From the human T2T-CHM13v2.0 reference genome, Homo sapiens, in NCBI RefSeq assembly GCF_009914755.1, contig NC_060928.1: a DNA stretch of 64,000 bases. The stretch is one strand, 5' to 3'. Shown here in pieces: positions 24,781-61,652 of the stretch. The notes under the pieces were generated by a model. That model had not been told where the DNA came from. It ran no database searches and was given only the letters and a program-made list of their open reading frames with translations. Positions within the stretch are counted from its first letter, which is position 1. The number at the start of each line of letters is the position of its first letter. The position numbers and the translations under genes are program-made.

Positions 24781-25089
24781 GGCCAGGCATGGTGGCTCAC
24801 GCCTGTAATCCTAGCACTTTGGGAGGCTGAAGCGGGTGGACTGCCTGAGTTCAGGAGTTCAAGACCAGCCTGGGCAACATGGTGAAATCCCATCTCAACT
24901 AAAATACAAAAAATTAGCTGGCATGGCAGCATGTACCTGTAATCCTAGCTACTTGGGAGGCTGAGGCAAGAGAATTGCTAGACCCTGGGAGGCGGAGGTT
25001 GCAGTGAGTGGAGATCACGCCACTGCACTCCAGCCTCGGTGACTGAGCAAGACTCTGTCTCTAAAAAAAATAAATTAAATTAAATAAAT
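24781..25089 (+). mobile_element. AluS inserted at the stop codon of the CNBD2-like gene
   Basis: Full dimer; degenerate TSD aaataaaaatga/aaatatatatga. Confidence 0.92.
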
Positions 25090-25316
25090 AAATATATATG
25101 AGTTGAGCCAGTGGTTCTACTTCCCTTTGTCAGGTGGGGTGCCAAGAACTTGGCCTGGTACTCATTCCACACTTGCTGCTTGACCAGGTGCTTACTGATG
25201 GCCTCCCCTATGGGGTAGGCACACACCAGCTCTAAAGCCCTTCTCCTGAATCCAGTGCTGGCTTCTGCTAGAAACAACTTCTTGGGAATGAAAATGCATT
25301 TCGTTCCTTCACTAAT
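25080..25316 (-). CDS. CNBD2-like terminal coding exon (237 nt): [78 protein letters not shown]
   Basis: Acceptor tttattctctcttctag; 78 open codons; YP...Q..W..Y motif like the CNBD2 C-terminal FP...Q..W..F; candidate AATAAA on the minus strand at 24661-24656 and 24446-24441. Confidence 0.78.
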   Translation of the reverse strand: [78 protein letters not shown]

Positions 25317-26520
25317 CTAGAAGAGAGAATAAACATTTTGATATTTATTTTGAGAGATTTTTAGTTGCTTAATGCATAAAGGTAATGTAGGTCAAACATG
25401 GATTTGAGAGTTCATATGTCTCATTAGGCCCACCCCAGTGCCTAATGAATCAACATGGATGTGATGTATATAAGAGGAGTGGCAGACTAGTCTACCCAAT
25501 CTGGGAACCAGGATGGCAACTGTGAAGTCATTTGGGTCCATTATGTCCTAACATCCCTCCTAACAAATAAAACATTCTGCATAAAGACTATAAAAGGATT
25601 AGTCTAGAAAATATGAGCCCTAATGGGGACAAATGATACACAGTTAAACTATAAGATAGTATAAGATAGGTAGTTATTTAACAATTGGCAGGTAACCTGG
25701 AATATGGTTCTGATGTTAACTGTTAATTCTCTGTCAGTAGGCCATAGTGTTCTCGTCTCTGTTCTAGTCCTCGTCTAGATCTTTCTCTTCTTCTGTTGGG
25801 CCAGGTTTTATTCCTCTGACCTCTATTGTACATTTCTATGTTGTAGATGGATCTGTATGAGCCAGGGACACATTTATGAAAGAGAAACTGATCACTCTGT
25901 CGTATTAGACTTCATTCTCTCTTCAACTCAAAATATCTGTCTCCCCCAAGGTTCAGCAAGGTATTTTTTTGGTTTTTCAATTTGTGTTCTTTTTAAATTG
26001 CTATTTTCCAATGCCAGTGTATCAGATGTTAGGATCCTGGTTCTTTAAAATACCTTCTATACCAGTGCGAGAGTAAATTAGAATCCTGTAAGATTTTAAA
26101 AGAGGAAGAGAACATATTCTTGGTTGGATATTCCCTGGGATGCAGTCTCTTATTATTTAAATGGCTTTTCTTGTAGAGCTGTTTCTCTGTTCTAGTAACA
26201 ATGCTTCCATTGTAACTGCCTGCTCTGGAGAACAGAGATTGGCCCCATAGTGGACTCTGTAGGCTAACTCTGCACAGGTTCTATAGGTACAGGGAAGGCT
26301 CTGGCTATGTAAGTTTCAAAACTTCTTTGAATACTCAACTTTATATTGCTTGAAAACTTTGTGAATCTCAAAAAGTGAGGAAAATTAGGAAAATCTGAAA
26401 AGTTTCAGTTAACATGGGATAAATCCTGAATATACATGACGTGGAAAATGGCAGATGAAAACTGGTATTTATTCTTGAAAAAAAAAAAACCTACCAATAG
26501 ACCAAAAAAATTCCAAGGTA

Positions 26521-26817
26521 GGCCGGGTGTGGTGGTTAACACCTGTAATCCCAGCACTTTCAGAGGCTGAGGTGGGTGGATCACTTGAGGTCAGGAGTTT
26601 GAGACCGGCCTAGCCAACGTGGTGAGACCCCATTTCTACTAAAAATACAAAAATTAGTTGGGCATGGTGGTGTGTGCCTGTAGTCCTAGCTACTCAGGAG
26701 GCTGAGCCAGGAGAATCGCTTGAACCCAGGAGGCAGAGTGTGCAGTGAGCCGAGATCACGCCACTGCACTCCAGCCTGGGTGACAGAGCAAGACCCTGTC
26801 ACAAACAAACAAACAAA
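26521..26817 (+). mobile_element. AluSx
   Basis: Full dimer with (CAAA)n tail; TSD tccaagg(t/c)a. Confidence 0.92.
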
Positions 26818-27043
26818 TCCAAGGCAATTTAAATATTTTAAATTCCATTTTAAAAATGTTTCAATATTTCTGAACCCAAAGTTTTTTGATTTCCATAAAT
26901 CTCTTTGGATTTCTACGTTGTAGGATGCTGCTAGGAACGTTGTGTCCTGTCTGTGAGCTCCTATGTGCTGAGCAAATGAACATAGCATGTGACTTTTGGA
27001 AGAATGATTCAGAGACCACTTTGGAAAAAAGATGTGCTTTTAC

Positions 27044-27091
27044 CAGACACAAATGAAGATCACATGATTTGTCCAGTGTTTCCTCCAAGCC
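27044..27091 (-). CDS. CNBD2-like exon (48 nt, phase 0 to 0): [16 protein letters not shown]
   Basis: Acceptor ttctcttacaatttgag, donor CTG|gtaaaa; joins in frame to ISEGTKCIF of the next exon, as in CNBD2 GL....LILMSLG. Confidence 0.7.
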
Positions 27092-27501
27092 CTCAAATTG
27101 TAAGAGAACCCAAGTCACTAAACGTCAAAGGTAACTTTTTATTAATTAAGCAAGAGACCAGAAAAATAAAATCAGCAGCAGATTTTTAATTAATTCTACT
27201 GTAACAATGAACCTACACATGGTCTTTTAGGAGTCAAATAAAATAGGAATGTAAACTATGTATTCTAAAATCCATGTAAAGTTCAGAATCAGATATTCAG
27301 AAGGAATGAGCCACACTACCAATTAAAATATCTGTTAAAAATTCAAGGCAGATAATCTATTTTTGTTTTGAGTCTTAAAAAATTTATCATAATGGCAAAA
27401 ATGAATGATTGTTACTTTTGGGGACAGCCAGACTTGAGCTAGGACTTGCAGGACAGAAAAAGTCTTGCTCAGGAGGGCAGATGATCTAAATTAATTTCCA
27501 T

Positions 27502-27805
27502 TTTCTTTTTTTTTTTTTTTTTTGAGATGGAATGCTGCTGTGTTGCCCAGACTGGAGTGCAGTTGTGTGATCTCGGCTCACTGCAAACTTCACCTTCTGA
27601 GTTCAAGTGATTCTCCTGCCACAGCCTCCCAAGTAACTGGGACTACAGGTGCCCGCCATCACACCTGGCTAACTTGTATTTTTAGTAGAGATGGTGTTTC
27701 GCCATGTTGGTCAGGCTGGTCTCGAACTCCTGATCTCAGGTGATCCACTCGCCTCACAGCCCCTCAAAGTGCTGGGATTACAGGCATGAGTCATCGCACC
27801 TGGCC
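27502..27805 (-). mobile_element. AluSx
   Basis: Reverse dimer; TSD taatttccattttct. Confidence 0.92.
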
Positions 27806-59896: not shown

Positions 59897-60468
59897 GAGA
59901 ACAGAAACTCTCTTTGAGCAGAAAACTATCCACCTTAAGAACAGCTAATAGGACATCCATCAGTGGAGGGATATATAATGGTGAGACCCTTGTCTAAAAG
60001 ATCATGGTTTTTTTGTGACCCATTGAGGAATGGTGCCATGCTGACAACTATCAATATGGATATCAAATACAACTATCTGTCTGTAGTTATTAAACATTTC
60101 CTTCTGTCAATTTGTTACTAAGGACATGCCAATATGGAAGAAGCCCAGAGGTCCAGGGACAGGGCCTCAAGACGGAAGAAGTATGATACCCTACAAGAAG
60201 CAAGCCAGGCCATTTGTGCCATAGATATGTGAAATAATGAATTATGTTAAAAAATCAAATCTTATTTGGAAATAATGTATATTGTTAAGTATTTACAGAT
60301 AATGATTAACTTTGCCAATGGAGGTTAAAAGCTCTCTTCCTTACAGTACAGGGTCTTACTCATGTTTATGTCCCCAATCCCAGGAAAGAGTAGCTGCTTA
60401 ATAAATGATTGTGGATATAAATTAAGTTTAATCAAGAACATTATTAAGATAATCAAGGAAGATCTTAC

Positions 60469-60507
60469 AAAGTTTTGCCATTTATCTTGTCTAGTTTGTT
60501 CAGCTAC
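60469..60507 (-). CDS. Candidate CNBD2-like exon (39 nt, phase 0 to 0): VAEQTRQDKWQNF
   Basis: Acceptor ctccttccttgtaatataag, donor TTT|gtaaga, open and in phase; no homology support. Confidence 0.4.
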
Positions 60508-60768
60508 CTTATATTACAAGGAAGGAGTGACTTTTGCATCCTACAAACTTCCTGGAAGAGTAATTATCAGTTAGACATCTAGGGACCATCCAAGACTTAA
60601 ATGAACACAGGAACTTTGAGTGCTCCCTTGGTGATCATTTTTATCAAAAGGATCTTTCTATCTCATTACTCTGTACTCCTTTGAGCAACAATCCTCAATA
60701 TTTTAGATAGTAAAGAACCTAAGAGCCAGATGTTCAATGAGACACCAAATTTATTCCATTTATCTTAC

Positions 60769-60845
60769 CTGGAGCTGAGGTTTCTTTGTGTTTAGCGTTG
60801 TTTTTCTAGAAGCTGAGAATGATGTCTTGGGAGAGACTGTGGATG
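60769..60845 (-). CDS. CNBD2-like exon (77 nt, phase 1 to 0): (T)STVSPKTSFSASRKTTLNTKKPQLQ
   Basis: Strong donor CAG|gtaaga; acceptor ctcttctgaaag (an alternative in-frame acceptor attctcag exists); only the phase-compatible frame is open. Confidence 0.6.
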
Positions 60846-61142
60846 CTTTCAGAAGAGTACATATTTTGTTGTTACAGATTTTTATTTTAAAATTATTCAT
60901 ATTATGATCCATTTATTAGATGAAATACTAGGCATTTCTTAAAATGGACTCATAGGAGGATATTTAACGAAAAAGGCAATACATATTTTAAGCTTTTTCC
61001 TGATTTTTATGGTACATTGAAATTATTTTATGTAATTAATAAAAATAAATATGAGACAGATAACAGGCCCACTATTGGTAGATTCCAACTCAGAAATCAA
61101 TTTCAATATTTGTGTAGCATCATTTCACAGAAATGTTCTTAC

Positions 61143-61287
61143 TTTCTAAACTTCTCCCAGGTACATCAACAGTTCCTGTTGGTGGAAGACCAGTGTGGAA
61201 ATTTTTTAGGTTGGAAGAATCTGTCATTACCCAGGAATGTACAGATATTTTCTCATAATTCATCTGAGTAATTACCAGACAATGGCC
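61143..61287 (-). CDS. CNBD2-like exon (145 nt, phase 0 to 1): GHCLVITQMNYEKISVHSWVMTDSSNLKNFHTGLPPTGTVDVPGRSLE
   Basis: Acceptor gtctttttttcag, donor GAAA|gtaaga; the phase-0 frame is the only open one and continues ...ITS|GHCLV (cf. CNBD2 SKGSCEV). Confidence 0.75.
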
Positions 61288-61591
61288 CTGAAAAAAAGAC
61301 TGAATAACTGACTACCAAAGAAACTTGGATTTCTTTAACGCATCATCTTCTATATTGACATGTAAAGATTATTTAATTCAAAATTCCAAAGAGGAGTTGA
61401 AATTACTCCTGATTAGTTATACTATTGAATCATCGAATATGTCAATGGGTAATCTATGGTCAGGTTCAACTAGCTCCTAGTTCTAGAGATGATCATAAAT
61501 ATGAAGGCATTATAGAAGATATGTAATCTTTGGTTGTAGCTCTCTACCAGAATTTTAACTGAAAAAGTTAATGCTTCTATTACATACTTAC

Positions 61592-61652
61592 AGATGTGAT
61601 TAATACAAGGAAATCTGAGTTTAAATTATCAGAGATAATGTTTGTTCCAGCC
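61592..61652 (-). CDS. CNBD2-like exon (61 nt, phase 2 to 0): (x)AGTNIISDNLNSDFLVLITS
   Basis: Acceptor ccattttctttcag, donor TCT|gtaagt, open frame; resembles the G-x-x-I-x-x-D...F-I-x-x-I-x-S strand of a cNMP beta-roll. Confidence 0.75.

What the first reader, a model, noticed from the sequence alone, without database searches (positions are those of the whole stretch)
25080..61652. Hidden CNBD2-paralogous cyclic-nucleotide-binding gene on the minus strand
Seen: five to six short exons with canonical splice sites chain in frame across 36 kb (61652-61592 > 61287-61143 > 60845-60769 > 60507-60469 ... 27091-27044 > 25316-25080). The ORF track catches only fragments of the last two. Knowledge, recalled rather than computed: AGTNIISDNLNSDFLVLITSGHCLVI parallels CNBD2 [58 protein letters not shown]...[26 protein letters not shown] parallels [34 protein letters not shown]...[26 protein letters not shown]. 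This is the second cNMP domain, with its long insert and C-terminal tail. Identity is too low for CNBD2 itself, and introns exclude a retrocopy. Inference: an ancient paralogue that I cannot match to a named human gene, either unannotated or a unitary pseudogene. CNBD2 is testis-enriched, so a sperm or cilia cAMP-sensor role is plausible.
Basis: partly seen in the sequence, partly recalled or inferred. Interest (0 to 1): 0.88.

Follow-up and report, generated by a model that had tools for sequence, protein, structure and literature searches.

The report
Dead human copy of CNBD2-like gene
The exons are real: they are the back half of an unannotated 14-exon human relic of a cyclic-nucleotide-binding gene that squirrels, rabbits and bats still appear to keep, and in this human genome it carries an early stop codon and lacks one exon.

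Summary
The chain is real and far beyond chance. These come from marsupials, squirrels, lagomorphs, bats, turtles, squamates and amphibians. The fourth exon (60507-60469) has no support.

The gene is larger than reported. Eight more exons lie beyond the window's right end, up to an ATG at window place 133891 inside a CpG island. The 13 exons found join into 1353 nt in frame, with AG and GT at every junction.

Three lesions are visible:
- a TGA at codon 23, where orthologues have Arg;
- Leu in place of the phosphate-binding Arg of the first domain;
- no trace of the 20-residue exon 12.

Otherwise the copy is no more diverged than live orthologues are from each other. I therefore read it as a young unitary pseudogene.

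Paralogy with CNBD2 (chr20) is supported by profile hits, six shared intron positions and a significant C-terminal alignment. RefSeq's table shows nothing at this place. Three literature searches found no paper on the family.

The parts
61592..61652 (-).
   Evidence: 77% over 22 aa, E 1.9e-4; family HMM E 2.4e-5
61143..61287 (-).
   Evidence: E 4.4e-14
60769..60845 (-).
   Evidence: bat 79% over 28 aa, E 3.6e-7
60469..60507 (-). Probably not an exon.
   Evidence: 0 of 572 tblastn hits overlap it; not among the family-HMM hits
27092..60768 (-). The 33.7-kb intron between exons 11 and 13. Exon 12 (20 residues in orthologues) should lie here but is not detectable.
   Evidence: HMM best hit 5.7 bits, E 1.4; PSSM top 13.3 against 13.8 on the control strand, true exons 32-52; gapped rank 21-25 of 2296 for the only candidate, 28171-28073
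27044..27091 (-).
   Evidence: rabbit 82% over 17 aa; best E 2.2e-5
25080..25316 (-). The last codons run into an AT-rich stretch and masked repeat (24731-25104).
   Evidence: phmmer against 1.84e9 proteins, 20 hits at E <= 1e-3; E 3e-23; sequence; hub table for the masking
61653..64000 (-). In-window part of the intron between exons 8 and 9. The rest of the gene lies beyond the window's right end, so the form cannot list it as parts. In window places, minus strand:
- E8 66564-66487 (donor GTTATA);
- E7 85465-85401;
- E6 104116-104033 (codon 196, CTA, Leu for the cassette Arg, at 104089-104087);
- E5 106883-106724 (first half of the first cNMP domain, PF00027 24.1 bits);
- E4 112799-112711;
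- E3 125502-125428 (donor GTTAAA);
- E2 128586-128475;
- E1 133891-133770 (ATG at 133891; in-frame TGA, codon 23, at 133825-133823).
A CpG island lies at about 133400-134750.

Best explanation
The window holds the 3' half (exons 9-11, 13 and 14) of a roughly 109-kb, 14-exon gene on the minus strand of chr4, between NMU and EXOC1L. It is the single human counterpart of a vertebrate gene that annotation pipelines call 'cyclic nucleotide-binding domain-containing protein 2-like'.

The ancestral protein has about 470 residues. It consists of an N-terminal helical region, a first CNB domain with an intact Gly-Glu...Arg phosphate-binding cassette (inferred to bind cAMP or cGMP), a second degenerate CNB domain split by a disordered insert of about 65 residues, and a long C-terminal helix. 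It is an old paralogue of CNBD2/CRIS.

In this human genome the gene is most likely a young unitary pseudogene:
- codon 23 is TGA;
- the cassette Arg is Leu;
- exon 12, which encodes a core strand of the second domain, cannot be found.

Shown: homology, exon structure, the lesions, uniqueness in the genome, and the paralogy with CNBD2. Inferred: ligand binding, loss of function, and the young age of the loss.
For: Homology
- The last exon alone finds 20 proteins at E <= 1e-3 among 1.84e9. Nine of the 20 carry PF00027 at E <= 0.01, eight of them above the cut-off.
- Sources name the relatives 'CNBD2-like' or 'uncharacterized' (48 proteins at E <= 1e-5; 38 at E <= 1e-10).
- tblastn of 30 relatives gives 182 hits at E <= 1e-3, 181 of them on the minus strand and 169 on the 13 colinear exons.
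- A family HMM gives 15 hits at E <= 10 among 8941 ORFs, 13 of them on the minus strand and in order.

Uniqueness
- The bat protein P0030 searched over the whole genome gives 41 matches at E <= 10. Eleven are colinear on this locus (E 1.6e-19 to 0.18). The other 30 have E > 2.

Structure of the gene
- The 13 exons total 1353 nt in frame, with AG and GT at all 12 introns, one internal stop at codon 23 and a terminal TAA.

Lesions
- TGA where orthologues have Arg.
- Arg196 to Leu is the only mismatch among 39 columns that are at least 95% conserved.
- Exon 12 is not found. The HMM's best hit scores 5.7 bits at E 1.4. The PSSM's top score on the gene strand is 13.3, against 13.8 on the control strand, while true exons score 32-52. 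With gapped alignment the only candidate ranks 21-25 of 2296 ORFs.

Tree
- The human row sits inside the placental group (SH-aLRT 100).

Fold
- The squirrel orthologue model has pLDDT 70.5 and pTM 0.60. It matches the tandem CNB-A/B domains of PKG I beta and PKA R subunits at Foldseek E 5e-18 to 1e-13 over 316-363 columns.
- Residues 363-371, which exon 12 encodes, form a strand in the model.

CNBD2 paralogy
- The family HMM hits three colinear CNBD2 exons at E 4e-5, 6e-5 and 0.2.
- Six junctions share position and phase.
- The C-terminal exons align with score 42, which 0 of 2000 shuffles reach.
Against: Apart from the three lesions, the copy looks alive.
- There is no frameshift, and every splice dinucleotide is intact.
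- Identity to placental orthologues is 50-72%, the same as among those orthologues.
- Mismatches at conserved columns are 1 of 39, 4 of 74 and 13 of 125. Live orthologues range 0-2, 0-4 and 3-14.
- The end branch is 0.19, against 0.18 for the squirrel path.
- A CpG island persists at exon 1.

Other caveats:
- The stop is very early. Reinitiation at the Met in exon 2 is conceivable, and one predicted opossum isoform starts in exon 2.
- One predicted bat isoform (P0036) also lacks exon 12.
- Only one human genome was seen, so the TGA could be an allele.
- All orthologues are computer-predicted proteins. No expression, population or other-primate data could be consulted.
- No dN/dS could be computed, because no orthologous DNA was available.
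Confidence: 0.8

Rival explanations
1. The gene is still a working but unannotated human gene. Either the TGA at codon 23 is particular to this genome, or it is bypassed by starting at the Met in exon 2. In that case a protein without exon 12 is made, probably in testis or ciliated cells.
For: - 1353 nt lie in frame, all 24 splice dinucleotides are intact, and there is only one internal stop.
- Conserved columns are kept as well as in live orthologues.
- The branch is not lengthened.
- A CpG island sits at the ATG.
- Predicted isoforms elsewhere start in exon 2 (P0002) or skip exon 12 (P0036).
- A rough neutral-decay sum gives P < 0.05 of staying free of frameshifts and splice loss beyond about 20-35 Myr (the rates are recalled).
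Against: - The stop falls in a conserved basic motif of the N-terminus.
- The one column of at least 95% conservation that human breaks is the cassette Arg. Its mutation is the standard way to abolish binding; the CRIS paper lists R288Q primers for its FRET sensor (passages seen).
- Exon 12 encodes a core strand in the model and is undetectable.
- Two donors have T at +3.
- RefSeq has no model here (hub table).
- No primate protein appears among the 48 or the 38 database hits.
Confidence: 0.13
2. The protein function is dead, but the locus is kept as a transcribed non-coding unit. The retained CpG-island promoter would drive a long non-coding RNA, or act as a regulatory element for NMU or EXOC1L.
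For: - An orphan CpG island lies at exon 1.
- RefSeq lists enhancers at 47725-48726, inside the intron between exons 11 and 13 (hub table).
Against: No transcript evidence was available to me. A CpG island can outlast a recent loss without having any function. Non-coding use does not explain why the splice sites and reading frame are preserved.
Confidence: 0.06
3. The chain is a chance run of open frames with AG/GT ends, or a repeat-derived or retrocopied fragment of CNBD2.
For: - Single exons give no Pfam cNMP hit (0 of 3).
- The last exon finds no CNBD2 match in the genome.
- A plain ORF-against-ORF BLAST of chr4 against chr20 shows nothing colinear.
Against: - There are 169 significant exon hits from 30 orthologues, all on one strand and in order.
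- The exons are separated by introns of 0.3-33 kb.
- Placental orthologues are 50-72% identical to the human copy, whereas CNBD2 is detectable only by profile.
Confidence: 0.01

Closest known systems
Predicted 'cyclic nucleotide-binding domain-containing protein 2-like' or uncharacterized LOC proteins of other vertebrates (for example Sciurus carolinensis P0024, Marmota P0026, Oryctolagus P0028, Myotis P0030, Notamacropus P0004, Chrysemys P0025, Ambystoma P0006)
   Same: - Colinear over 13 of 14 exons, at 55-95% identity per exon to placentals.
- Same start Met and same C-terminal end.
- The human row groups with the placentals.
- This is the only match in the human genome.
   Different: Human has TGA at codon 23, Leu for the cassette Arg, and no exon 12. 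These relatives are pipeline predictions. I found no paper on them.
CNBD2 / CRIS (human chr20), the cAMP-binding protein of sperm precursor cells (PMC3854790; listing, abstract start and passages seen)
   Same: - A first CNB domain followed by a region that aligns with the chr4 gene's second domain and C-terminus.
- Six shared intron positions with the same phase.
- An insert at the same place between the 'G.C' strand exon and the 'GL...' exon.
   Different: - Too distant for single-sequence search.
- In the cassette region the family scores no closer to CNBD2 than to EPAC or PKA-R exons.
- The chr4 gene has three extra introns.
- It is a separate locus, and the CRIS paper's text holds the word 'paralog' 0 times.
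Tandem CNB-A/CNB-B modules of PKA regulatory subunits and PKG
   Same: Best structural matches of the squirrel orthologue model are 4z07 at E 5e-18, 3shr, 4mx3 and 1ne4, over 316-363 columns. Sequence matches to PKG and PKA RII-alpha run through residues 93-296.
   Different: There is no kinase domain. No docking or inhibitor segment was seen in the Pfam scan. The second domain lacks the cassette Glu and Arg (read from the sequences) and carries a long disordered insert. Sequence identity is 12-17%.
EPAC2 (RAPGEF4) cAMP-binding domain
   Same: Best solved-structure match by sequence: 1o7f at E 3.3e-14, residues 91-223. The EPAC exon is the top hit of the family HMM among other human cNMP exons (L017, E 5.7e-7).
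   Different: Only the first domain matches. There is no DEP, REM or GEF part.

Membership tests
cNMP_binding domain proteins (Pfam PF00027) | Match to PF00027 above the gathering score (27.5 bits) | tested here: inconclusive
   Human exon 5 alone scores 24.1 bits (profile 3-57), genome-wide E 0.077, below the cut-off. The domain is split over exons 5 and 6, and I could not submit the join. Orthologues score 65.9-85.7 bits.
cNMP_binding domain proteins (Pfam PF00027) | Phosphate-binding cassette with Gly-Glu and the Arg that contacts the cyclic phosphate (feature recalled from the PKA and CAP literature) | tested here: not met
   Human keeps Gly-Glu at the exon 5/6 junction but has Leu at codon 196, where at least 95% of orthologues have Arg. 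The orthologues meet the feature.
'CNBD2-like' gene of vertebrates (orthologue set) | Colinear similarity over the whole length, and the sole best match in the genome | tested here: met
   13 of 14 exons were found in order. Eleven genome-wide matches all lie on this locus and none elsewhere below E 2. The human row is inside the placental group.
'CNBD2-like' gene of vertebrates (orthologue set) | Same chromosomal neighbourhood in other species (synteny) | not testable with these tools
   No annotated genomes of other vertebrates were on hand.
CNBD2 / CRIS proper | Reciprocal best match to the chr20 gene | tested here: not met
   The last exon and the bat orthologue find no chr20 match at E <= 10. 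Only the family profile reaches three CNBD2 exons. The locus is a paralogue, not CNBD2 itself.
Unitary pseudogene | A disabling change in the reading frame | tested here: met
   In-frame TGA at codon 23 of 450; exon 12 not detectable.
Unitary pseudogene | Not a duplicated or processed copy: introns kept, and no intact copy elsewhere in the genome | tested here: met
   Twelve introns have AG/GT ends. There is no second match in the genome.
Unitary pseudogene | Working orthologue in other species | tested here: inconclusive
   Full-length open predicted proteins exist in squirrels, lagomorphs, bats, a mole, marsupials, reptiles and amphibians. None has experimental support that I could find.
Unitary pseudogene | The disabling change is fixed in the species | not testable with these tools
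   Only this one assembly was available.

The most novel reading that the evidence does not exclude
Humans may still carry a usable gene for a second CRIS-like cyclic-nucleotide sensor that no annotation lists. On this reading the codon-23 TGA is either an allele of this one genome or is bypassed by downstream initiation. The CpG-island promoter would be active, and the protein would be made in a narrow cell type such as spermatids or ciliated cells. The clean frame, intact splice sites and well-kept conserved residues would then reflect ongoing selection, not a recent death.
Probability: 0.12. Interest if true: 0.8.

Novelty: new member of a known kind. Interest (0 to 1): 0.5.

Why it matters
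Known dedicated cyclic-nucleotide receptors in mammals are few: PKA, PKG, EPAC, the CNG and HCN channels, POPDC and CRIS. This locus shows that vertebrates have a further CRIS-related tandem-CNB protein.

- It is kept in several placental orders.
- It was not found for primates or murid rodents in two database searches.
- No paper on it turned up in three literature searches.

A gene missing from both human and mouse reference annotations is easily overlooked. The human relic is so well preserved that the loss should be datable on the ape tree. It is a clean case for studying a recent gene loss. The live orthologues (rabbit, squirrel, bats) offer a direct route to the function.

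Tried and rejected
- Pfam on single exons: 0 of 3 hit PF00027. The exons are too short.
- The last exon against the whole genome found only itself, plus one noise hit at E 8.9.
- ORF-against-ORF BLASTP of the 164-kb chr4 locus against 50 kb of chr20 gave 76,091 raw hits, mostly repeats. 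After filtering, 750 remained. None of the 60 best that I read was a colinear exon pair. Single-sequence similarity to CNBD2 is too low, and only the family profile works.
- The word-index search with the last exon and lengths 'longer' gave 93 candidates, none at E <= 1. This was a miss of that method, because the full scan found relatives.
- Exon 12:
  - The profile's best hit, at 28171-28073, sits behind a pyrimidine-rich tract and an AG, which looked tempting.
  - It scores only 5.7 bits at E 1.4.
  - It ranks 21-25 of 2296 ORFs under three gap settings.
  - It would begin with TAG if spliced at that AG, and it has no GT after the matching part. Rejected.
  - The ungapped PSSM scan of the intron and of the whole locus gave nothing above the opposite-strand control.
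- Thirteen of the 182 significant tblastn hits lie outside the exons:
  - five places hit by residues 169-268 of the reindeer model P0062, and three by residues 7-64 of the Phyllostomus model P0051, look like repeat-derived parts of those predictions;
  - one is a 5' extension of the mole model;
  - two short P0062 hits at 103500-103400 were not explained.
- A genome search with an alignment was not accepted, so I used a single protein.
- The last CNBD2 exon was not found in the 50 kb fetched (motif search).

Full report
**1. The observation**

One frame stays open to a TAA at 25082-25080. All six acceptors are AG and all five donors are GT. That much is mechanical.

Taken singly, the exons say little:
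- 0 of 3 tested hit Pfam's cNMP model.
- The last exon finds only itself in the genome.

**2. Independent support from outside the window**

I searched PF00027 over the window's own genome (T2T; the window is C4:59148001-59212000). This gave 58 matches at E <= 10. One lies 42.7 kb beyond the window's right end, on the same minus strand: C4:59254709-59254885, 24.1 bits, E 0.077, below the 27.5-bit cut-off.

That exon starts in the same phase, and ends after the same 'FG/IG' motif, as the CNBD2 exon on chr20.

**3. Relatives**

phmmer of the 78-residue last exon against 1.84e9 representative proteins gave 20 hits at E <= 1e-3.
- Three of them (P0001, P0010, P0013) are unrelated repeat proteins.
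- Nine carry PF00027 at E <= 0.01, eight of those above the cut-off.
- Several of these match with their C-terminal ends.

A word-index search with the wallaby protein P0004 returned 48 proteins at E <= 1e-5. Their sources name them 'cyclic nucleotide-binding domain-containing protein 2-like' or 'uncharacterized'. They come from marsupials, squirrels, lagomorphs, bats, a mole, a reindeer, turtles, squamates and amphibians.

A profile of nine placental members returned 38 proteins at E <= 1e-10 and added a sawshark and a skate.

No primate, murid or carnivore protein appears in either list. Those searches score only candidates that share words, so this is suggestive, not proof of absence.

**4. 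The whole gene**

I fetched 100 kb to the right of the window and ran tblastn with 30 relatives.
- There were 182 hits at E <= 1e-3, 181 of them on the minus strand.
- Of these, 169 fall on 13 colinear exons.

After fixing the junctions by eye, the exons in window places are:

| Exon | Place | In window? |
|---|---|---|
| E1 | 133891-133770 | no |
| E2 | 128586-128475 | no |
| E3 | 125502-125428 | no |
| E4 | 112799-112711 | no |
| E5 | 106883-106724 | no |
| E6 | 104116-104033 | no |
| E7 | 85465-85401 | no |
| E8 | 66564-66487 | no |
| E9 | 61652-61592 | yes |
| E10 | 61287-61143 | yes |
| E11 | 60845-60769 | yes |
| E13 | 27091-27044 | yes |
| E14 | 25316-25080 | yes |

All 12 acceptors are AG and all 12 donors are GT. 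The join is 1353 nt and stays in frame. Two donors (E3 GTTAAA, E8 GTTATA) have T at +3 and look weak.

**5. Uniqueness and orthology**

The bat protein P0030 searched over the whole genome gives 41 matches at E <= 10.
- Eleven lie on this locus, in order, with E from 1.6e-19 to 0.18.
- The other 30 all have E > 2: 29 in a chr8 array and one on chr13.

In a quick maximum-likelihood tree of 17 rows, the human row falls inside the placental group (SH-aLRT 100). Its place among the placental orders is not resolved. Synteny in other species could not be checked.

**6. Lesions**

(a) Codon 23 is TGA (133825-133823), where squirrel, rabbit and bat have the first Arg of a conserved basic motif. The neighbouring bases fit a CGA-to-TGA change at a CpG, which is an inference.

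(b) Codon 196 (E6) is Leu where at least 95% of 55 relatives have Arg. This is the human copy's only mismatch among 39 such columns. It is the Arg of the phosphate-binding cassette. That identification is recalled from the PKA and CAP literature. The CRIS paper's methods list R288Q primers for its FRET sensor (passages).

(c) Exon 12 is 20 residues long in 41 relatives. In the model it forms a strand of the second domain (residues 363-371). It cannot be found:
- The profile's best hit is 5.7 bits at E 1.4.
- The PSSM's top score is 13.3 on the gene strand and 13.8 on the control strand. True exons score 32-52.
- With gapped alignment the only tempting candidate ranks 21-25 of 2296.

Skipping exon 12 keeps the frame, and one predicted bat isoform lacks it too.

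**7. How decayed is it?**

Hardly at all.
- Human is 65-72% identical to squirrel, marmot, rabbit, hare, bat and mole proteins. Those proteins are 63-72% identical across orders.
- Mismatches at conserved columns are 1 of 39, 4 of 74 and 13 of 125 at the 95, 90 and 80% levels. Nineteen live relatives range 0-2, 0-4 and 3-14.
- The human end branch is 0.19. The squirrel path is about 0.18, the lagomorph path 0.32 and the mole 0.31.

A rough Poisson sum used recalled neutral rates: 0.5-1e-9 substitutions per site per year, and one small indel per eight substitutions. It puts the chance of no frameshift and no splice-site loss below 0.05 after about 20-35 Myr.

A CpG island covers exon 1. GC is 0.52-0.66 and observed/expected CpG is 0.67-0.82 over about 1.3 kb.

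I read this as a recent death. It also leaves room for a gene that is not dead.

**8. What the protein is**

Orthologues score 65.9-85.7 bits on PF00027 for one domain.

The AlphaFold model of the squirrel protein, built with a 37-row alignment, has pLDDT 70.5 and pTM 0.60. It shows:
- N-terminal helices;
- a first beta-roll with its helices (residues about 130-237);
- a second beta-roll (257-292 and 363-404), split by a disordered stretch (297-361);
- a long C-terminal helix (430-461).

Foldseek's best matches are tandem CNB-A/B modules: PKG I beta 4z07 at E 5e-18, 3shr, and PKA RI-alpha 4mx3 and 1ne4, over 316-363 columns. By sequence the best solved relative is EPAC2 (1o7f, E 3.3e-14), followed by PKG and PKA RII-alpha.

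The second domain has 'FGL' where the cassette has 'FGE', and it has no Arg at the matching place (read from the sequences). I infer that only the first domain binds a nucleotide. No binding was tested.

**9. Relation to CNBD2**

The family HMM (55 sequences) was run against the ORFs of 50 kb of the CNBD2 locus.
- It hits three colinear plus-strand exons at E 4.1e-5, 5.9e-5 and 0.2, among 2588 ORFs.
The fourth, from the last exon, is not in the 50 kb fetched.

Six junctions have the same position and phase in both genes:
- before E5;
- E5|E6;
- the end of E7, inside an Arg codon;
- the start of E8;
- E9|E10;
- the start of E13.

The chr4 gene has three further introns. The human E13+E14 peptide aligns to the CNBD2 exon with score 42. 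Shuffles average 21.6 with SD 3.9, and 0 of 2000 reach 42.

In the cassette region alone the family is no closer to CNBD2 than to EPAC or PKA-R exons. The case for CNBD2 as nearest paralogue therefore rests on the linker, the second domain, the C-terminus and the gene structure.

**10. Is it known?**

The hub's RefSeq table lists no gene between 4831 and 138781.

Full-text searches found nothing on the family:
- 'domain-containing protein 2-like' with 'cyclic nucleotide-binding': 0 papers.
- CNBD2L, CNBD3, CNBD2-like, CNBD2P1: 2 papers, both apparently off topic by their titles and abstract starts, the only parts I saw.
- EXOC1L, NMU and pseudogene together: 0 papers.
- CNBD2 with pseudogene: 10 papers, of which 7 are listed; by title, none is about a paralogue (listing only).

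The text of the CRIS paper holds 'paralog' 0 times. It says the protein resembles no other outside its CNBD (passages).

GENCODE, Ensembl and subscription journals could not be consulted.

**11. Verdict**

The locus is the human orthologue of an unstudied CNBD2-like gene. It is most likely a young unitary pseudogene (0.8), with a smaller chance that it still works (about 0.13).

It is a new member of a known kind and of moderate interest.

Noticed in passing
window places 133400-134750 (outside the window; L040): A CpG island with no RefSeq gene attached lies exactly over the ATG exon of the relic. GC is up to 0.66 and CpG observed/expected up to 0.82.
   Followed up: partly
window 24731-25104: The last eight or so codons and the stop of exon 14 run into an AT-rich simple stretch followed by a T run and what looks like an antisense Alu (family recalled, not tested). 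The original 3' UTR is therefore interrupted right behind the stop.
   Followed up: no
window places 103400-103500, minus strand (outside the window; L036): Residues 121-152 of the reindeer model P0062 hit two short stretches (82% over 17 aa and 83% over 12 aa) in the intron after exon 6. This could be an extra exon, retained intron in that model, or chance.
   Followed up: no
G000:C1:91970661-91971257, plus strand (L008, L013): Two adjacent PF00027 matches (36 and 49 bits) carry in-frame stops and have no intron between them. This looks like a processed pseudogene of a two-domain cNMP-binding protein.
   Followed up: no
proteins P0028, P0042, P0053, P0056: Source names of some orthologues look wrong for this family: rabbit 'CNBD2 isoform X2', 'cGMP-dependent protein kinase, isozyme 1-like', and 'SS18-like protein 2'. 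The rabbit protein matches the chr4 locus exon by exon.
   Followed up: partly
proteins P0062 (residues 169-268) and P0051 (residues 7-64): Parts of these two predicted proteins hit several scattered places in the 164-kb locus (five for P0062, three for P0051; one of the P0051 hits is on the plus strand). Those model parts are probably repeat-derived.
   Followed up: no
window 47725-48726: RefSeq's two enhancer features lie inside the 33.7-kb intron between exons 11 and 13 of the relic.
   Followed up: no
G000:C8:86.09-86.94 Mb: A large tandem array on chr8 gives 29 near-identical weak matches (E 2.5-7.8) to residues 53-156 of the bat protein, each with one TGA. I took these as chance matches to a repeated unit.
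   Followed up: no
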